From positions 1-11,483 of the IMG/VR virus record IMGVR_UViG_2778261300_000001: a stretch of 11,483 bases of DNA. One strand, written 5' to 3'. Below, one piece after another: positions 2,108-11,483 of the stretch. The DNA comes from a virus. Its lineage: Duplodnaviria; Heunggongvirae; Uroviricota; Caudoviricetes. The notes beneath the pieces are model-generated. The model did not search any database. It worked only from the letters and a program-made list of their open reading frames with translations, and was not told where the DNA came from. How positions within the stretch are numbered: the stretch's first letter is position 1; the number at the start of each line of letters is the position of its first letter. The translations under genes and the position numbers were made by a program.

Positions 2108-3205
2108 TTAGAACTGGTAAACCAGACCTACAGCAACGATGTCATCAGTGCTTACACTGAGTGCTTTAGTGAAGTCATTTTTGTCAAGCAGGTTGATTTT
2201 GTAATCAACGAAAGTAGACATATTTTTGTTGAAGTAATAGGTTGCACCTACATCAACATATTTGACTAAGTCCTGATCGCCCCATACTCCAAGATCCTTA
2301 CCTTTAGATTGCAGGTAAGCAACGGACGGACGCAGACCGAAATCGAACTGATATTGTGCAACAGCTTCGAAGTTTTGGGCTTTATTAGCAACGAAGTGAT
2401 CAGCAAATACAGTCATATTCTGGGTTTCAGAATAGGTAGTGGCCAGGTAAATGTTGTTAGCGTCATATTTCAGACCTGCGGCCCAAACTTCTGCATTTTT
2501 ACCGGAAGCAAATACTTCAGGAAGAACTTTCCCTGCATTAACTTGAGTGTCGGTACGATCAGATTTCGCATAAGTTGCACCGATACCGAATCCTTCGTAT
2601 TCATAGGTAGCAGAGAAACCGAAGCCATCACCGTTACCTTCAGTGTAGTTATCGAAATCGCTACGATCGTTTTTGCCTTGGTACTGAGCAGCAAAGTTCA
2701 GACCATCAACCAGACCAAAGAAGTCGTTGTTACGATAGGTTGCAACACCAGTTGCACGTTGAGTCATGAACACGTCGGTTTGAGTCCAAGTGTCACCACC
2801 GAATTCTGGCAGGACGTCAGTCCACGCACCGATGTCGTATGCTACACCGTAGTTACGGCCGTAATCGATGGAGCCGTAGTCACCGAATTTCAGGCCAGCG
2901 AAGGCAAGACGGGTTTTATCTTTGGAGGAACCTTGAGATTCAGCGCGGTTGCCTTTGAATTCATATTCCCACTGACCGAAACCAGTCAGTTGATCGTTGA
3001 TTTGGGTTTCACCTTTGAAGCCAAGACGGGCATAAGTAGTATCACCATCATCTGCATCATTGGAGGAGAAGTAGTGCTTAGCATTAACTTTCCCGTACAG
3101 ATCCAGCTTGTTACTGTCTTTATTATAAATTTCAGCTGCCTGAGCAGACATCGCCATCAGTACTGATGCAGCTACAGCAGAAATTGCCACTGTTAATTTT
3201 TTCAT
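2108..3205 (-). CDS. nmpC: General bacterial porin of the OmpC/OmpD/NmpC family, 365 aa including signal peptide; prophage moron
   Basis: Signal peptide [23 protein letters not shown], then [17 protein letters not shown]... and C-terminal ...VAVGLVYQF, the typical porin beta-barrel terminus ending in F. I take the ATG at 3203-3205 as the start rather than the upstream extension in the track. The reading frame is uninterrupted. Confidence 0.9.
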
Positions 3206-3632
3206 CGTGAGCCCTTTTTTTGAACTATTATTAAAAAATGATGTCACTGCGCGATAAATATTCATCTAATCAATGTGATTATTTCAAGATGTAAGTTTTG
3301 GTTTCTCGTTTGATTTGTGAAGTAGATCTCTATTTTTATCTGAACTTTTTTCTATCGAATCCTATTCATGGCTCTTGGCTGAATAAAAATAAATCTATTA
3401 GCCAATTTATATTAACGGCTGTTATTTATAAGCGCTCTATAATTTGAAGGTTCAATTTAAACCGGCTAAAAATAACACTGGAAATTATTTGTTGGTTATT
3501 TGTTGAGATTTGCTTATGTATTTGTAGTGGTGTTTTCAATACTCGGTAGCATTCTCGCAAATATCATTTAGTGGTTTACGTACGTAAAAAATTGGTTATG
3601 CTGTTAAGAGTGGTTACTTCGTCACACAGCTT
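3206..3632. promoter_or_regulatory. AT-rich intergenic region: nmpC promoter and 5' leader on the minus strand, probably also late-promoter / essD upstream signals on the plus strand
   Basis: About 570 bp without a credible ORF between the divergent nmpC start and essD. It is AT-rich and contains a tandem 11-bp repeat at 3485-3506. Confidence 0.5.
3485..3506. repeat. Tandem direct repeat, 2 x 11 bp (TTATTTGTTGG / TTATTTGTTGA)
   Basis: Read directly from the sequence at 3485-3495 and 3496-3506. Confidence 0.6.
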
Positions 3633-3665
3633 AAACCCGCCGTCGAGCGGGTTTTTCCATTTTTT
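3633..3665 (+). terminator. Intrinsic terminator (8-bp stem AAACCCGC/GCGGGTTT, 6-nt loop, T-runs); candidate tR'-like terminator upstream of the lysis cassette
   Basis: Stem 3633-3640 pairs with 3647-3654, followed by TTTTT CCA TTTTTT. It lies about 110 bp upstream of the essD start. Confidence 0.6.
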
Positions 3666-3777
3666 GAGTCTCGATATTAGCTGATAACCCAATACCTGAG
3701 TTATTCACTGACTCCGAGTCTGTTACGTTTCGTAGTATTCCCTCAATTTACACCCGCTTTGTCTGCGAGGTGGGGTT

Positions 3778-3993
3778 ATGAAATCCATGGATAAGTTAAC
3801 AACGGGTGTCGCCTATGGCACCTCAGCAGGTAGTGCCGGGTACTGGTTTTTACAGCTGCTAGATAAAGTCACGCCCTCACAGTGGGCGGCAATTGGAGTG
3901 CTGGGTAGCCTGGTATTTGGCCTGCTGACGTACCTGACAAACCTTTATTTCAAGATTAAAGAAGATAAGCGCAAGGCTGCGAGAGGTGGATAA
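3778..3993 (+). CDS. essD: Phage-21-type pinholin S (holin/antiholin with dual-start motif MKSM), 71 aa
   Basis: [71 protein letters not shown] matches the S21/EssD pinholin: two transmembrane helices, Met1 and Met4 dual starts, charged C-terminus. RBS is GAGGTGGGG. Confidence 0.9.
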
Positions 3994-4490
3994 TGCCTCC
4001 ATCATTACGAAAAGCTGTTGCTGCTGCTATTGGTGGCGGGGCTATTGCTATAGCATCTGTGTTAATCACTGGCCCAAGTGGTAACGATGGTCTGGAAGGT
4101 GTGAGACATAATCCTTACAAAGACATAGTTGGTGTATGGACTGTATGTTACGGGCATACAGGAAAAGACATCATGCTCGGTAAAACGTATACCAAAGCAG
4201 AATGCAAAGCACTCTTGAATAAAGACCTTGCCACTGTCGCCAGACAAATTAACCCGTACATCAAAGTCGATATACCGGAAACAACGCGCGGCGCTCTTTA
4301 CTCATTCGTTTACAACGTGGGTGCTGGCAATTTCAGAACATCGACGCTTCTTCGCAAAATAAACCAGGGCGATATCAAAGGCGCATGTGATCAGCTACGT
4401 CGCTGGACATATGCTGGCGGTAAGCAATGGAAAGGTCTCATGACTCGTCGTGAGATTGAGCGTGAAATTTGTTTGTGGGGTCAGCAATGA
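3993..4490 (+). CDS. rrrD: SAR endolysin (lysozyme with N-terminal signal-anchor-release domain), 165 aa
   Basis: N-terminal SAR-like hydrophobic, Gly/Ala-rich segment [18 protein letters not shown], followed by a lysozyme-like domain. The start overlaps the essD stop as TAATG. Matches R21/RrrD. Confidence 0.9.
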
Positions 4491-4951
4491 ACAGAGTAAC
4501 CGCGATTATCTCCGCTCTGGTTATCTGCATCATCGTCTGCCTGTCATGGGCTGTTAATCATTACCGTGATAACGCAATCGCCTACAAAGAGCAGCGCGAT
4601 AACAAGGCCAGTGAACTGGAGAAGGCGAACGCCACCATCGCTGACATGCGGAAGCGTCAACGTGATGTAGCAGAACTCGACGCCAGATACACAAAGGAGC
4701 TTGCTGATGCTAACGCGACTATCGAAAGTCTTCGTGCTGATGTTTCTGCTGGGCGTAAGTGGCTGCGCGTCAAAGCTGTCTGTCCAGACATGCATAAAAT
4801 CACCGCCGCCTCCGGCGTGGATGATGGCACCAGCCCCAGACTTACTGACACCGCTCAACGGGATTATTTCACCCTTAGAAAGCGGATTGAAACCAGTGAT
4901 AAAATGATCCGAGGCTTGCAGCAATACATTCGCACGCAGTGTGTAAGATGA
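4487..4951 (+). CDS. rzpD: Rz-type i-spanin (inner-membrane spanin subunit), 154 aa
   Basis: [26 protein letters not shown]... is an N-terminal transmembrane helix followed by a charged, coiled-coil-like periplasmic domain. The start overlaps the rrrD stop as ATGA. Confidence 0.85.
4707..4907 (+). CDS. rzoD: Rz1-type o-spanin lipoprotein, 66 aa, embedded in the +1 frame of rzpD
   Basis: [23 protein letters not shown]... has a lipobox (VSGC) and a proline-rich mature part ([26 protein letters not shown]) typical of Rz1. GGAG lies 8 nt upstream of the ATG at 4707. It is wholly nested within Rz. Confidence 0.75.
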
Positions 4952-5986: not shown

Positions 5987-7366
5987 ATGGATCATGAGTT
6001 GAAAAACTTGGTGCTGAATATTAATCAACTGGCGGCTTTATCTGGTCTGCACCGCCAGACTGTCGTGGCAAGACTGAAAAACATTCGTCCCGCTGGTGGA
6101 CATGACAAACTCAAGCTATATCGGTTGACCGATATTCTGACTGAATTTATGGGGTTACCACCGCCGGTTGCTGAGGGCGAAATGGATCCACATGAACGCA
6201 AAGCCTGGTATCAGTCTGAACGTGAGCGTCTTAAGTTCGAACAGGAAACGGCACAACTCATTCCGGCCAGTGATGTCAGACGGGAGTTTGCCATCTGGGC
6301 AAAAGCGGTCGTGCAGGTGCTGGAGACATTACCGGATATTCTGGAACGTGACTGCGGCCTGCAGCCTGCCGCTGTGAGCCGTGTTCAGTCCATTATTGAT
6401 GATCTGCGCGATCAGATAACCGAATCCCATCTCGGCAAGGAGCTGCTGGAAAAAGTCGAGCTAACGGAGGATAACGCCAGCAAACTGGAGGAGTTTTCGA
6501 AAGAGTGGCAGGACGCTAACGATAAGTGGAATGCTATGTGGGGCGTCAAAATTGAGCAGACCAAAGACGGCAAACATTATGTCGCGGGTATTGGCCTCAG
6601 CATGGAGGACACGGAAGGAGGCAAGCTGAGCCAGTTTCTGGTTGCCGCTAACCGTATCGCGTTTATTGACCCGGCAAACGGGAATGAAACGCCGATGTTT
6701 GTGGCGCAGGGCAATCAGATATTTATGAACGACGTGTTCCTGAAGCGCCTGGCGGCCCCGACCATTACCAGTGGTGGAAATCCACCGGCATTTTCCCTGA
6801 CATCAGACGGAAAGCTGACCGCTAAAAATGCGGATATCAGTGGCAGTGTGAATGCGAACGCCGGGACGCTCAACAATGTCACGGTAAATGAAAACTGTAC
6901 GATTAAGGGCATGCTGGAGGCGACCCAGGTCAGAGGGGATTTCGTTAAAGCTGTATCAAAAGCCTTCCCGAAAAAAGTCGGTACGTGGGGTAACACGGAA
7001 ACACCAAACGGTACGGTTACAGTCACCATCAGCGATGATCATAACTTTGACCGCCAGATTATTATTCCGCCCATTATTTTTAACGGTATAGCGTATGACG
7101 ATCCGGGGAGCGGAAATAACCCAGGAGGCACGCGATACACGGGTTATGGTTTTGAAGTTCGCAAAAACGGCGTATTAATCGCATCCAGAGAAACTAAAGG
7201 GGCCATTCCCGGTAGTTACAGTGCAGTTATTGATATGCCTAGTGGTGGTGGTAGCGTCACTCTGGAGTTTAAGATTTTCCAGAAAGGCAATCAGGGGGCA
7301 GGCAATATCACCGACTGTACGGTGATTGTGACCAAAAAAGCGGCTTCCGGCATCAGTATTCGTTGA
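5987..7366 (+). CDS. In-frame chimeric ORF (459 aa): small-terminase (Nu1-type, HTH) N-terminal region fused to the C-terminal receptor-binding region of tail tip / host-specificity protein J; deletion scar of the morphogenesis region
   Basis: N-terminus [32 protein letters not shown]... is HTH-like and sits where Nu1 would be, downstream of the cos-like site with GGAGG RBS. From about residue 185 onward ([86 protein letters not shown]...) it is near-identical to the lambda J C-terminal region as I remember it. It is followed by lom, as J is in lambda. Confidence 0.8.
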
Positions 7367-7436: not shown

Positions 7437-8036
7437 ATGCGTAAAGTTTGTGCAGCCATTTTGTCCGCAGCCATTTGTCTGGCCGTATCCGGTGCGCCTG
7501 CATGGGCGTCTGAACATCAGTCCACGCTGAGCGCGGGGTATCTTCATGCCCGGACCAACGTTCCCGGCAGTGATGATCTGAACGGGATTAACGTGAAATA
7601 CCGTTATGAGTTTACGGATACGCTGGGGCTGGTGACGTCATTCAGCTATGCAGGAGACAAGAATCGCCAGCTGACCCATTACAGCGATACCCGCTGGCAT
7701 GAAGATTCCGTGCGTAACCGCTGGTTCAGCGTAATGGCGGGGCCGTCTGTGCGCGTGAATGAATGGTTCAGCGCGTATGCGATGGCGGGTGTGGCTTACA
7801 GCCGTGTGTCGACTTTCTCCGGGGATTATCTCCGCGTAACTGACAACAAGGGGAAAACGCACGACGTGCTGACCGGAAGTGATGACGGTCGCCACAGCAA
7901 CACGTCTCTGGCGTGGGGGGCTGGCGTGCAGTTTAACCCGGCCGAATCCGTGGCCATTGATATTGCTTATGAAGGCTCCGGCAGTGGCGACTGGCGCACT
8001 GACGGTTTCATCGTGGGTGTCGGTTATAAGTTCTGA
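7437..8036 (+). CDS. lom: Lom outer-membrane protein (Ail/Lom/OmpX family beta-barrel), 199 aa with signal peptide
   Basis: Signal peptide MRKVCAAILSAAICLAVSGAPAWA, and a C-terminal ...GFIVGVGYKF beta-barrel terminus. It sits between J and stf as in lambda. RBS is AGAGG. Confidence 0.9.
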   Translation: MRKVCAAILSAAICLAVSGAPAWASEHQSTLSAGYLHARTNVPGSDDLNGINVKYRYEFTDTLGLVTSFSYAGDKNRQLTHYSDTRWHEDSVRNRWFSVMAGPSVRVNEWFSAYAMAGVAYSRVSTFSGDYLRVTDNKGKTHDVLTGSDDGRHSNTSLAWGAGVQFNPAESVAIDIAYEGSGSGDWRTDGFIVGVGYKF

Positions 8037-8062
8037 TTAGCCAGGTAACACAGTGTTATGAC

Positions 8063-8100: not shown

Positions 8101-11100
8101 ATGGCAGTAAAGATTTCAGGTGTACTGAAAGATGGCACAGGAAAACCGGTACAGAACTGCACAATCCAGCTGAAAGCAAAACGTAACAGCACCACGGTGG
8201 TGGTGAACACGCTGGCCTCAGAAAATCCGGATGAAGCCGGGCGTTACAGTATGGACGTTGAGTACGGTCAGTACAGCGTTATTCTGTTGGTGGAAGGATT
8301 CCCGCCGTCACATGCCGGGACCATCACCGTGTATGAAGATTCCCGACCCGGTACGCTGAATGATTTTCTCGGTGCCATGACGGAGGATGATGCCCGTCCG
8401 GAGGCACTGCGCCGCTTTGAACTGATGGTGGAAGAGGTGGCGCGTAACGCGTCCGTGGTGGCGCAGAACACAGCAGCCGCGAAGAAGTCAGCCAGCGATG
8501 CCAGCACATCAGCCCGTGAGGCGGCAACCCGTGCGACTGATGCTGCAGGCTCAGCACGCGCAGCCAGTACGTCAGCCGGACAGGCCGCGTCGTCGGCTCA
8601 GTCAGCGACTTCCAGCGCAGGAACGGCATCAACAAAGGCCACTGAAGCATCAAAAAGTGCTGCCGCTGCAGAGTCCTCAAAAAGCGCGGCAGCTACCAGT
8701 GCCAGTGCCGCGAAAACGTCAGAAACGAATGCGGCAGCGTCACAAAAATCTGCAGCCACTTCTGCATCCGCCGCGACCACAAAGGCGTCAGAAGCTGCCA
8801 CCTCAGCCCGGGATGCGGCGGCCTCAAAAGAGGCAGCGAAATCATCAGAAACGAACGCATCATCAAGCGCCAGTAGTGCCGCTTCCTCGGCAACGGCGGC
8901 AGGAAATTCCGCGAAGGCGGCAAAGACGTCCGAGACGAACGCCAGGTCTTCTGAAACGGCAGCGGGACAGAGTGCCTCAGCTGCGGCAGGCTCAAAAACA
9001 GCGGCTGCGTCGTCTGCCAGTGCAGCGTCAACAAGTGCCGGGCAGGCCTCAGCCAGTGCTAGCGCCGCCGGAAAATCGGCAGAAAGCGCCGCATCGTCCG
9101 CTTCAACAGCCACAACGAAGGCTGGCGAAGCCACTGAACAGGCCAGTGCAGCAGCGAGGGCTGCTTCCGCAGCGAAGACATCCGAAACGAACGCGAAAGC
9201 GTCGGAAACCAGCGCAGAATCCTCAAAAACGGCTGCCGCATCGTCCGCCAGTTCGGCGGCGTCATCGGCATCATCTGCGTCTGCTTCAAAAGATGAGGCG
9301 ACCAGACAGGCGTCAGCAGCAAAGGGCAGCGCCACGACGGCATCCACGAAGGCGACAGAGGCTGCTGGCAGTGCGACGGCGGCAGCACAGAGCAAAAGTA
9401 CGGCAGAATCCGCAGCAACGCGCGCTGAGACAGCGGCAAAACGTGCAGAGGATATTGCATCCGCCGTGGCGCTTGAGGATGCGAGCACGACGAAAAAGGG
9501 GGTAGTACAGCTCAGCAGTGCGACCAACAGCACGTCTGAAACGCTGGCGGCAACGCCAAAGGCAGTAAAAGCAGCCTATGACAATGCAGAGAAACGTCTG
9601 CAGAAAGACCAGAACGGTGCTGATATTCCCGACAAGGACCGCTTCCTGAGTAACATTAATGTTTACAGCAAAGGTGAAGTGGATCAGAAAAAGGGGATGC
9701 GATACGTTGTGGTAAATGCCCCGGCGGGTGTCCAGGAAGGTAAATATTATCCGTTAGTGATAAAAAGGAATGACAGCCATCGGGCATCCCGCGTTGTCAT
9801 TTCAACGCCAAGTCGCTCAGCTAATCACAGAATGAATAATTGTGAGTTTAATGGTTTTGTTTGCGCAGGCGGCTGGACGGACCGGGGTAGCTATGCCTGT
9901 GGTATGTTCTGGGCTTATTCATCATCGGAACGCGCTATTCATTCCATTCTGATGAGTAATAAAGGCGATACCGTAGACAGCGTATTCTATATAGAAGGTG
10001 GGGCATTTCCCGTAGAGGTCTTTTTAGAAGAAGGTCTCTCCGTTACTGCACCTGCTTCTGATTATATTGTTGCTGAAACGACTTATAAATTTGGCGCAAC
10101 TGATCCTTATTCTGAATCAGTTGCGGTAAATTTAATTTTAGATTTTAAACAAGGTAATGGATTTTATAGTTCGTATCCTGTTTTGAGTAAGTCAGACATT
10201 AGCGGGAATAAGATTTACGCTAATGATGAAGTTATTGTCCGTAGTCAGAACGCGTTAAGGATGATTGCAGGTGATTACGGTGTCATATGGCGAAATGATG
10301 GAGCAAATACTTACTTGCTCATGACTGATAAAGGCGACCAGTACGGTGGCTGGAACGGTCTTCGACCATTTGCAGTAAATAACGCAACAGGTGAAGTGAC
10401 GATCAATACACCACTTAATTCTCCTAAGGGGATTAAGGGAAATTCTGATACAGCTACGAAACTTCAGACAGCAATAAAAATATCTGGTGTTTCGTTTGAT
10501 GGTTCTACTGATATCACTTTAACCGCTGCGCATGTTGCTGCTTTTGCCAGAAGAGCAACGGATACGTATGCCGATGCGGATGGGGGCGTTCCCTGGAATG
10601 CCGAATCAGGCGCTTACAATGTCACCCGCTCTGGCAACAGCTATATTCTGGTTAACTTCTATACCGGAGTCGGAAGTTGCCGGACCTTGCAGATGAAGGC
10701 GCATTACAGAAATGGTGGTCTGTTCTACCGTTCTTCAAGAGACGGTTATGGTTTTGAGGAAGACTGGGCAGAAGTTTATACCTCGAAAAATCTTCCACCA
10801 GAAAGCTACCCAGTCGGCGCACCAATCCCGTGGCCATCAGATACCGTTCCGTCTGGTTATGCCCTGATGCAGGGGCAGACTTTTGACAAATCTGCTTACC
10901 CGAAACTTGCAGCCGCTTATCCGTCAGGCGTGATCCCTGATATGCGTGGCTGGACGATTAAGGGCAAGCCCGCCAGTGGTCGTGCCGTATTGTCTCAGGA
11001 ACAGGACGGCATTAAATCGCACACCCACAGCGCCAGCGCATCCAGTACGGATTTGGGTACGAAAACCACATCGTCGTTTGATTACGGCACTAAATCCACG

Positions 11101-11483
11101 AATAACACCGGGGCGCATACCCATAGTATTAGCGGGACAGCAAATAGTGCCGGTGCGCACCAACACAAGAGTTCCGGTGCATTTGGTGGCACGAACACGA
11201 GCATTTTTCCTAATGGTTATACTGCGATTTCAAATCTAAGCGCGGGGATTATGAGCACAACAAGCGGTACTGGCCAGACTCGTAATGCAGGGAAGACATC
11301 ATCAGATGGTGCTCATACCCACTCACTGTCCGGCACTGCTGCAAGCGCAGGTGCACACGCACATACTGTCGGTATTGGTGCTCATACGCACTCCGTTGCG
11401 ATTGGTTCACATGGACACACCATCACCGTTAACGCTGCTGGTAACGCGGAAAACACCGTCAAAAACATCGCATTTAACTATAT
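8101..11483 (+). CDS. stf: Side tail fiber protein Stf, 3'-partial (at least 1127 codons; continues past the window end)
   Basis: N-terminus [80 protein letters not shown] is the conserved lambda Stf / StfR N-terminus. I translated the frame by hand from 8101 to 11483 and met no stop. It contains a long Ala/Ser/Thr-rich repeat region and C-terminal GAHTHS-type His repeats. It is missing from the ORF track, which appears to list only complete ORFs ending in a stop. Confidence 0.9.
8460..9480 (+). repeat. Low-complexity Ala/Ser/Thr-rich coding repeat region inside stf, with a recurring 23-nt unit encoding AK(T/S)SETNA
   Basis: Units GCGAAAACGTCAGAAACGAATGC (8709), GCGAAATCATCAGAAACGAACGC (8836), GCAAAGACGTCCGAGACGAACGC (8920) and GCGAAGACATCCGAAACGAACGC (9182). 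GCN-rich codon composition generates long shadow ORFs in other frames. Confidence 0.7.

What the first reader, a model, noticed from the sequence alone, without database searches (positions are those of the whole stretch)
11010..11430. Histidine-repeat (GAHTHS-type) array in the distal part of the side tail fiber
The translation contains repeated HxH motifs: [36 protein letters not shown], then [27 protein letters not shown]. Repeated His-x-His motifs coordinate metal ions in the receptor-binding tip of T4-type long tail fibers, so this stf allele probably has a metal-stabilised distal fibre domain. The tip and any tail-fiber assembly gene lie beyond the window.
Basis: partly seen in the sequence, partly recalled or inferred. 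Interest (0 to 1): 0.45.

Follow-up and report, generated by a model that had tools for sequence, protein, structure and literature searches.

The report
T4 gp37-type iron-needle tip on Stf
The histidine repeats are real, but they are the well-known iron-binding "needle" of the phage T4 long tail fibre tip, here carried on the side tail fibre of a decayed lambda-like prophage, so the finding is correct but ordinary.

Summary
Observation confirmed. Seven H-x-H motifs lie at nt 11020-11418 in the side-tail-fibre ORF (8101 to beyond 11483, + strand). None of 100,000 shuffles reaches seven.

The last 227 residues in the window match the crystal structure of the T4 gp37 receptor-binding tip (PDB 2XGF) at E = 4.7e-80 and 69% identity. 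All 14 histidines align one-to-one with the only 14 histidines of that fragment. Those form its seven HxH sites, which hold seven irons. It is also already known: lambda Stf/T4 gp37 homology and HxH iron sites are in the literature.

One part is wrong. The chain folds back in this fold, so the receptor-binding head lies between HxH-3 and HxH-4 (nt 11167-11295), inside the window. It is the hypervariable cassette, 43 residues here against 28 in T4. By comparison with relatives, only about five residues (IVRLA) and the tfa chaperone gene lie beyond the window.

The same allele occurs at 97-100% identity in phages mEp332 and ev099 and in dozens of IMG/VR prophage contigs.

The host element is a DLP12-like defective prophage with a nohD::J deletion fusion, so it cannot build a virion on its own.

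Interest is low.

The parts
8101..11483 (+). Side tail fibre gene stf. 1127 codons are in the window and the ORF is cut by the window end; about 5 codons plus the stop are missing, judged from relatives.
   Evidence: Open frame. PF08400 prophage tail fibre N-terminal domain, E = 1.6e-71. The gene follows truncated J and lom, as in lambda. mEp332 and 72/74 relatives end ...NIAFNYIVRLA*.
8101..8502 (+). Stf N-terminal tail-attachment domain (aa 1-134).
   Evidence: PF08400 over aa 1-134. Residues 1-94 match PDB 9E7M/9MGH 'Tail fiber protein' at E = 1.6e-51.
10063..10374 (+). T4 gp34-like trimerisation domain in the fibre shaft (aa 655-758).
   Evidence: PF21446, E = 3.6e-30. PDB 4UXE/5NXF gp34 hits, E about 1e-18.
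10801..11481 (+). T4 gp37-type receptor-binding module (collar, needle and head), aa 901-1127.
   Evidence: phmmer against PDB: 2XGF chain A residues 28-237, E = 4.7e-80. 69% identity to T4 gp37, 78% to lambda orf-314, and rounding to 100% (one substitution, T1057S) to mEp332. phrog_295 tail fibre, E = 2.5e-131.
10816..10959 (+). Collar domain (aa 906-953), equivalent to T4 gp37 domain D10.
   Evidence: PF07484 Collar, E = 7.5e-12. 43/51 identical to T4 gp37 residues 811-861. D10 definition from PMC6957217.
11020..11028 (+). HxH-1 (H974/H976), aligned to T4 H883/H885.
11116..11124 (+). HxH-2 (H1006/H1008), aligned to T4 H915/H917.
   Evidence: A weak PF03335 'Phage tail fibre repeat' hit at aa 1001-1014 scores 18.9 bits, below the 20-bit cutoff.
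11158..11166 (+). HxH-3 (H1020/H1022), aligned to T4 H929/H931. This is the last iron site before the head.
   Evidence: T4 H929/H931 are described as iron ligands, and alanine substitutions abolish plaque formation (PMC6957217).
11167..11295 (+). Head (receptor-binding tip) cassette, aa 1023-1065, equivalent to T4 gp37 residues 932-959. Hypervariable.
   Evidence: 43 aa against 28 in T4, with only 2/25 aligned residues identical. At least 8 discrete alleles of 32-53 aa occur among IMG/VR relatives. Nucleotide identity to relatives with other alleles stops at about 11135-11159 and resumes at about 11294-11308.
11314..11322 (+). HxH-4 (H1072/H1074), aligned to T4 H966/H968. This is the first iron site on the returning strand.
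11356..11364 (+). HxH-5 (H1086/H1088), aligned to T4 H980/H982.
11383..11391 (+). HxH-6 (H1095/H1097), aligned to T4 H989/H991.
11410..11418 (+). HxH-7 (H1104/H1106), aligned to T4 H998/H1000.
11446..11481 (+). C-terminal return into the collar (aa 1116-1127, ...[11 protein letters not shown]). The final IVRLA lies beyond the window.
   Evidence: 11/12 identical to T4 residues 1010-1021. D10 includes T4 residues 1010-1026 (PMC6957217).

Best explanation
Window nt 10801-11481 encodes the C-terminal receptor-binding module of a lambdoid side tail fibre (Stf). This module is a close homologue of the phage T4 gp37 long-tail-fibre tip.

By homology with the crystal structure, three chains form a thin intertwined 'needle'. 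Each chain runs outward through HxH-1 to HxH-3, forms the small receptor-binding head (aa 1023-1065), and runs back through HxH-4 to HxH-7 to finish in the collar next to where it began. At each of seven levels, the two histidines of one motif from each of the three chains (six imidazoles) would octahedrally coordinate one buried metal ion, Fe(II) in T4. These ions staple the trimer in register and stiffen the needle.

The head between HxH-3 and HxH-4 is the exchangeable specificity cassette. The conserved His-containing flanks keep the scaffold constant. Folding would need the Tfa chaperone, whose gene lies just beyond the window.

Shown here: the motifs, the homology, the one-to-one His correspondence, the variable cassette and the conservation across relatives. 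Inferred: trimer geometry, metal identity and occupancy, the receptor, and whether the fibre is ever assembled, since the resident prophage is defective.
For: 2XGF match at E = 4.7e-80 over query residues 2-227 and chain residues 28-237.

69% identity to T4 gp37, with all 14 His invariant across T4, lambda, mEp332, an E. coli prophage and the window.

The His map to T4 883/885, 915/917, 929/931, 966/968, 980/982, 989/991 and 998/1000. T4 residues 785-1026 contain exactly those 14 His and no others. That matches seven irons times six ligands over three chains.

Literature: seven coordinated iron atoms lie along the gp37 needle, H929 of three subunits forms a metal site, and H929A and H931A are lethal (PMC6957217). 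The HxH octahedral Fe site in 2XGF, pyocin fibres and P2/phi92 spikes is described in PMC6116203.

Lambda Stf shares sequence and structure with the gp37 tip and is proposed to fit into the OmpC trimer cavity (PMC12617516).

His columns are 97-100% conserved in 40 distinct IMG/VR sequences, while the inter-motif head drops to about 60-70% identity to the window with discrete alleles.

The module, with 4-8 HxH motifs and the ...NYIVRLA end, persists down to 40-50% identity across Enterobacterales. This argues for protein-level constraint.

Collar domain PF07484 is present. tfa lies immediately downstream in relatives.
Against: No metal was measured, and no trimer model could be made with the tools. 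The only structure prediction possible, a single-sequence monomer, failed with pLDDT 39.4.

The head cassette has no detectable similarity to the T4 head (2/25 identical), so its fold and receptor are not established.

The prophage lacks head and tail genes, and J is reduced to a nohD::J fusion. This copy may therefore never be built into a particle.

The primary structure paper (Bartual et al. 2010) could not be read here. The ligand list rests on secondary papers plus the His arithmetic.
Confidence: 0.9

Rival explanations
1. Same fold and same sites, but the bound metal is not iron. It could be Zn(II) or another divalent ion, or the sites could be only partly occupied.
For: T4 gp12 has an HxH site that holds zinc in its crystal structure, although this may be a preparation artefact (PMC6116203). 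Nothing in the sequence specifies the metal.
Against: The direct homologue at 69% identity (2XGF) has iron at all seven sites. So do the HxH sites of pyocin fibres and of P2/phi92 spikes, where iron was identified by X-ray fluorescence and anomalous maps.
Confidence: 0.08
2. The conserved His-box segments matter mainly at the DNA level. They would serve as homology anchors that let recombination swap the head cassette between fibres, and their conservation would reflect this more than metal binding. This can be an additional role and need not exclude metal binding.
For: Against relatives with other head alleles, nucleotide identity of 93-97% ends at window nt 11135-11159 and resumes at 11294-11308. 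Those points are at HxH-3 and HxH-4. Megablast hits in phages come as two pieces flanking the cassette. From my own knowledge, not checked here: Tetart et al. (1996, 1998) proposed 'His boxes' as recombination sites in T-even gene 37. A literature search for that term found nothing in the held library.
Against: The His residues stay conserved in relatives at 40-60% protein identity, where DNA homology is too low for homologous recombination. His-to-Ala substitutions in T4 are lethal at the protein level. DNA anchoring therefore cannot be the primary reason for conservation.
Confidence: 0.3
3. In this genome the gene is a functionless relic. The fibre is never assembled because the prophage has lost its virion genes, so the motifs have no current role.
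For: The 459-aa ORF at 5987-7366 fuses a DUF1441/NohD-like N-terminus to the C-terminal third of J, which implies deletion of all head and most tail genes. The context is DLP12-like.
Against: The 1127-codon frame is intact, with no stop or frameshift. The C-terminal 227 aa are 99-100% identical to copies in many other contigs, including the isolated phages mEp332 and ev099. That fits recent decay or retention as a recombination donor. The mechanism encoded by the sequence is unchanged either way.
Confidence: 0.35
4. The 'Ferrojan horse' idea: the iron-loaded fibre mimics a siderophore-iron complex to engage iron-uptake receptors.
For: The hypothesis exists in the literature for HxH-bearing fibres (PMC11705849).
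Against: In gp37-type needles the irons are buried on the trimer axis and are not exposed. Known receptors of the closest homologues are OmpC and LPS. No evidence from this window supports the idea.
Confidence: 0.02

Closest known systems
Phage T4 gp37 long tail fibre receptor-binding tip (PDB 2XGF; domains D10 collar and D11 needle/head)
   Same: 69% identity over 227 aa, E = 4.7e-80. Same collar domain, same seven HxH motifs in the same order and register, and the same C-terminal ...TVKNIAFNY(IVRLA).
   Different: The head between HxH-3 and HxH-4 is 43 aa against 28, and only 2/25 aligned residues are identical. Here the module sits on a lambda-type Stf (PF08400 N-terminus) of a siphovirus prophage, not on a myovirus distal half-fibre. 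The chaperone in relatives is lambda Tfa-type, not T4 gp38.
Ur-lambda side tail fibre Stf (split into orf-401 and orf-314 in lambda PaPa)
   Same: Same gene position (J, lom, stf, tfa), same N-terminal domain, and 78% identity in the C-terminal module. The literature reports a gp37-like tip that binds OmpC (PMC12617516).
   Different: Lambda has 8 HxH motifs (an extra GAHQHPVVI unit) and a duplicated FDYGTK unit. Its head cassette is different. The shaft of the window protein also carries gp34-like and Mu S-like segments.
Stf of Escherichia phages mEp332 (PV340541) and ev099 (NC_049953), and many IMG/VR E. coli prophage contigs
   Same: 97-98% nucleotide identity over the last 683 nt, including the head cassette. 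The mEp332 C-terminal 227 aa differ by one residue (T1057S). At least 40 IMG/VR contigs are 97-100% identical.
   Different: Essentially nothing in the module. mEp332 is annotated with stf split into separate CDSs. The window copy sits in a defective prophage.
HxH iron sites of R1/R2 pyocin fibres and of P2 gpV / phi92 central spikes
   Same: The same HxH motif forming an octahedral six-His Fe site on a trimer axis (PMC6116203).
   Different: These have one site per protein, not an array of seven. No sequence homology outside the motif, and none of them appears among the PDB hits.
T4-type short tail fibre collar (gp12-like; PDB 9CUY/9MJN 'Short tail fiber')
   Same: The collar domain is shared, E = 3.1e-08 over query residues 3-77. 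gp12 also has an HxH metal site.
   Different: Only the collar aligns. There is no seven-site needle.

Membership tests
T4 gp37-type receptor-binding tip (2XGF fold: collar, iron needle, head) | Significant sequence homology across both collar and needle to the solved structure | tested here: met
   phmmer E = 4.7e-80 over chain residues 28-237 of 242. 69% identity.
T4 gp37-type receptor-binding tip (2XGF fold: collar, iron needle, head) | HxH motifs in register with the iron-ligand histidines of gp37 | tested here: met
   All 14 His align with T4 883/885, 915/917, 929/931, 966/968, 980/982, 989/991 and 998/1000. These are the only His in T4 residues 785-1026.
T4 gp37-type receptor-binding tip (2XGF fold: collar, iron needle, head) | Phage tail collar domain preceding the needle, with the C-terminus returning to it | tested here: met
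   PF07484, E = 7.5e-12, at aa 906-953. The C-terminal 12 aa are 11/12 identical to T4 1010-1021.
T4 gp37-type receptor-binding tip (2XGF fold: collar, iron needle, head) | Variable head segment between the outward and returning halves of the needle | tested here: met
   The segment at aa 1023-1065 is the only poorly conserved stretch. Discrete alleles of 32-53 aa occur in relatives.
T4 gp37-type receptor-binding tip (2XGF fold: collar, iron needle, head) | Homotrimer with octahedral six-His coordination of buried Fe(II) | not testable with these tools
   No multimer or metal modelling is available. The single-sequence monomer model was unusable, pLDDT 39.4.
T4 gp37-type receptor-binding tip (2XGF fold: collar, iron needle, head) | Dedicated assembly chaperone gene (gp38/Tfa) immediately downstream | tested here: inconclusive
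   The window ends before the stop codon. In mEp332 and E. coli 07_3636 a 194-aa tail fibre assembly gene starts at the stf stop.
Lambdoid side tail fibre Stf | Prophage tail fibre N-terminal domain (PF08400) | tested here: met
   E = 1.6e-71 over aa 1-134, full profile length. PDB 9E7M, E = 1.6e-51.
Lambdoid side tail fibre Stf | Gene order J - lom - stf (- tfa) in a lambdoid late region | tested here: met
   J C-terminal domains lie in ORF 5987-7366, Ail/Lom at 7437-8036, and stf from 8101. The order is the same in lambda and in E. coli 07_3636.
Pfam PF03335 'Phage tail fibre repeat' (14-aa repeat) | Score at or above the Pfam gathering threshold (20 bits) | tested here: not met
   One stretch at aa 1001-1014 scores 18.9 bits, E = 0.0015, below the cutoff. 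I do not file the finding under this family.

The most novel reading that the evidence does not exclude
The 43-residue head cassette of this allele ([42 protein letters not shown]...) is unrelated in sequence to the T4 and lambda heads. It may recognise a surface receptor other than the OmpC and LPS core used by T4, or the OmpC used by lambda. The intact stf in a prophage that has lost all virion genes may be kept as a ready-made host-range cassette that superinfecting lambdoid phages pick up by recombination at the conserved His-box flanks.
Probability: 0.3. Interest if true: 0.3.

Novelty: already known. Interest (0 to 1): 0.1.

Why it matters
The main value is annotation. The last 227 residues in the window can be labelled domain by domain from a solved structure: collar, seven metal sites and head.

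The receptor-specificity determinant can be placed at nt 11167-11295, not beyond the window. That position is useful for host-range prediction or for engineering Stf chimeras.

The finding opens no new question. The lambda Stf/T4 gp37 relationship and the HxH iron sites are established, and the exact allele is already present in sequenced phages.

Tried and rejected
1. Structure prediction of the 227-aa module as a single sequence gave pLDDT 39.4 and pTM 0.17. The model was unusable, so no fold search was run. An MSA-based run would have needed a whole-database protein search. I judged that not worth its cost, because 69% identity to a solved structure already settles the fold.

2. Reading the primary structure paper (Bartual et al. 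2010) by DOI and by PMC id failed; it is not held. I used secondary papers and the histidine count instead.

3. A literature search for 'His boxes' returned no paper containing the term. The Tetart et al. attribution is from memory only.

4. NCBIfam has no model that hits this protein.

5. Tandem Repeats Finder found no DNA tandem repeat under the His array. I therefore rejected a recent DNA-level repeat expansion.

6. PF03335 scored below threshold.

7. I considered chance and rejected it on the shuffle test.

8. I considered that the hits in Chromatium, Pseudomonas, Paenibacillus, Kitasatospora and similar assemblies show a wide host distribution. I rejected this. The translated fibre modules I extracted from 12 of these loci are identical to one another (68.8% identity to the query, 8 HxH motifs as in lambda), and several lie on contigs of about 48.4 kb at low coverage. 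Most likely they are phage lambda DNA contaminating the assemblies, though I did not compare them directly with lambda.
Full report
**Observation.**

Frame 1 of the + strand is open from nt 8062 to the end of the window. An ATG at 8101 begins [16 protein letters not shown]..., giving 1127 codons before the window cuts the ORF.

Seven H-x-H motifs lie at these positions:

| Motif | Residues | nt | Context |
|---|---|---|---|
| HxH-1 | 974/976 | 11020-11028 | KSHTHSASA |
| HxH-2 | 1006/1008 | 11116-11124 | GAHTHSISG |
| HxH-3 | 1020/1022 | 11158-11166 | GAHQHKSSG |
| HxH-4 | 1072/1074 | 11314-11322 | GAHTHSLSG |
| HxH-5 | 1086/1088 | 11356-11364 | GAHAHTVGI |
| HxH-6 | 1095/1097 | 11383-11391 | GAHTHSVAI |
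| HxH-7 | 1104/1106 | 11410-11418 | GSHGHTITV |

All 14 histidines of the last 160 residues are in these motifs. The other 967 residues contain six. None of 100,000 shuffles of the last 160 residues reaches seven motifs (mean 1.1). There is no DNA tandem repeat here.

**What it is.**

The protein is a lambdoid side tail fibre:
- Its first 134 residues are a full-length PF08400 prophage tail-fibre N-terminal domain (E = 1.6e-71).
- Residues 1-94 match a solved 'Tail fiber protein' chain (9E7M, E = 1.6e-51).
- The gene follows J-derived and Lom ORFs, as stf does in lambda.

The protein is a mosaic:
- Residues 441-521 and 812-906 match the Mu fibre protein S.
- Residues 701-792 match T4 gp34 (PF21446).
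- Residues 901-1127 match the crystal structure of the T4 gp37 receptor-binding tip (2XGF) at E = 4.7e-80, covering chain residues 28-237 of 242.

In an alignment with T4 gp37, lambda orf-314, phage mEp332 and an E. coli prophage, the window is 69%, 78%, about 100% and 83% identical respectively. Every one of the 14 His columns is invariant.

**Mapping to the solved structure.**

In T4 numbering the window's histidines correspond to H883/885, 915/917, 929/931, 966/968, 980/982, 989/991 and 998/1000. T4 residues 785-1026, the crystallised fragment, contain exactly those 14 histidines and no others.

Islam et al. (PMC6957217) state three things. Seven coordinated iron atoms lie along the needle. 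H929 of the three subunits forms a metal site. Alanine substitution of H929 or H931 abolishes plaque formation.

Buth et al. (PMC6116203) describe the same HxH octahedral six-His iron site in 2XGF, in pyocin fibres and in phage spikes. Seven irons times six ligands over three chains equals 14 His per chain. Each His in the window therefore has a ligand counterpart.

The metal itself is inferred and was not measured.

**Where the tip is.**

According to PMC6957217, the gp37 collar D10 is made of residues 811-881 and 1010-1026. The chain therefore goes out and comes back, and the receptor-contacting tip residues fall at about 932-959.

In the window this corresponds to aa 1023-1065 (nt 11167-11295), between HxH-3 and HxH-4. 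The segment is 43 residues against 28 in T4, with only 2 of 25 aligned residues identical. The flanks are 66-92% identical.

Among 80 IMG/VR relatives:
- The His columns are 97-100% conserved.
- This segment falls into at least eight discrete alleles of 32-53 residues.

At the DNA level, identity of 93-97% to relatives with other alleles stops at nt 11135-11159 and resumes at 11294-11308.

Only the final IVRLA and the stop codon are missing: 72 of 74 complete relatives end FNYIVRLA, and mEp332 does too. The tail-fibre assembly gene does lie beyond the window. In relatives it starts at the stf stop codon.

**How it most likely works.**

By homology, three chains intertwine into a needle. At each of seven levels, one HxH motif from each chain supplies six imidazoles to a buried Fe(II). 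These ions set the register of the three chains and stiffen the fibre.

The head cassette at the far end contacts the receptor. That is OmpC and LPS for T4 and OmpC for Ur-lambda Stf, where binding speeds up adsorption roughly 10-30-fold (PMC12617516). The receptor of this particular head allele cannot be read from the sequence.

The module is widespread in Enterobacterales. It carries four to eight HxH motifs and a conserved ...NYIVRLA end down to 40-50% identity. Needle length therefore varies in units of metal sites, and the histidines are under protein-level constraint.

The coincidence of DNA mosaic breakpoints with HxH-3 and HxH-4 fits the conserved flanks also serving as recombination anchors for cassette exchange. 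This would be a secondary role.

**Context.**

The window is a DLP12-like defective lambdoid prophage. It carries, in order:
- a weak, below-threshold NinB-like ORF, then RusA and the Q antiterminator;
- an nmpC/lc-type porin on the minus strand (2108-3265);
- holin, lysozyme and Rz;
- a 459-aa ORF (5987-7366) that fuses a DUF1441/NohD-like N-terminus to the C-terminal domains of J;
- lom and stf.

All head genes and most tail genes are therefore deleted, and this copy cannot make a virion on its own. The exact nohD::J junction was not found in any of 5,426 complete E. coli genomes.

**Novelty.**

None for the finding itself:
- The lambda Stf/T4 gp37 homology and functional interchangeability are cited from Montag et al. 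1989 and Hendrix & Duda 1992 in PMC9659904 and PMC12617516.
- HxH motifs are reported as conserved in the tail fibres or spikes of coliphage lambda and cyanophages in PMC11705849.
- The very same allele is present at 97-100% identity in phages mEp332 and ev099 and in dozens of prophage contigs.

**What did not work.**

- The single-sequence AlphaFold2 model was unusable (pLDDT 39.4).
- The primary structure paper was not available.
- NCBIfam has no model for the protein.
- PF03335 scored below threshold.

**Verdict.**

The feature is already known, and interest is low.

Noticed in passing
window 5987-7366 (+): A 459-aa ORF is an in-frame chimera. A DUF1441/NohD-like (DNA-packaging) N-terminus of about 146 aa is fused to the C-terminal Phage_Tail_Tip and Ig_GpJ_C domains of tail tip protein J. 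This implies one deletion that removed all head genes and most tail genes. The junction lies near nt 6412. None of 5,426 complete E. coli genomes has a match spanning it; only the J part matches, at 98.6%.
   Followed up: partly
window 2108-3265 (-): A full-length Gram-negative porin gene (PF00267, E = 2.4e-156) sits between the Q antiterminator and the lysis cassette. In relatives it is annotated ompC/nmpC. It is a prophage-borne OmpC-like porin in the same element as a fibre whose closest characterised homologues bind OmpC. A possible link to superinfection exclusion was not examined.
   Followed up: no
window 8500-9540 (+), Stf aa ~135-480: A long Ala/Ser/Thr-rich low-complexity stretch (..[32 protein letters not shown]..) occupies about a third of the fibre. 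TRF finds only a trivial 9-bp repeat there. Long spurious ORFs overlap it on the minus strand (8598-9533) and in another + frame (8498-9505).
   Followed up: no
window 8101-11481 (+): The Stf shaft is a mosaic of pieces with solved relatives from unrelated phages. Residues 441-521 and 812-906 match Mu tail fibre S (5YVQ/8JU3, E = 1e-32 to 1e-40). Residues 701-792 match T4 gp34 (4UXE, 5NXF; PF21446).
   Followed up: partly
L091-L101, L103, L131 (genome-contig hits): Fibre modules that translate identically to one another (68.8% identity to the query, 8 HxH motifs as in lambda) occur in assemblies of Chromatium, Leeuwenhoekiella, Pseudomonas, Neobacillus, Paenibacillus, Shewanella, Kitasatospora and others. 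Several lie on contigs of about 48.4 kb at low coverage. They most likely are phage lambda DNA contaminating those assemblies and not real prophages; I did not compare them directly with lambda.
   Followed up: partly
L046, L047, L072; lambda L004: The number of metal-site units varies among close relatives. L046 has an in-frame deletion that removes two HxH motifs, leaving 5. L047 is frameshifted after HxH-5. L072 and lambda have an extra GAHxH unit, giving 8. Across Enterobacterales the module has 4-8 motifs.
   Followed up: partly
L001 (phage mEp332) 1299-4699: In the deposited mEp332 record the stf region is annotated as separate 'hypothetical protein' CDSs (1299-1979 and 2663-4699, the latter starting at a GTG inside the fibre), with an unannotated gap over the Ala/Ser-rich part. 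This is either a frameshift as in lambda PaPa or an annotation artefact.
   Followed up: no
L087, L102 (MAG 'Bacillota bacterium OH_SDB_141'): A metagenome bin labelled Bacillota carries this E. coli-type Stf module at 95% and 71% identity. It is probably a mis-binned enterobacterial prophage contig.
   Followed up: no
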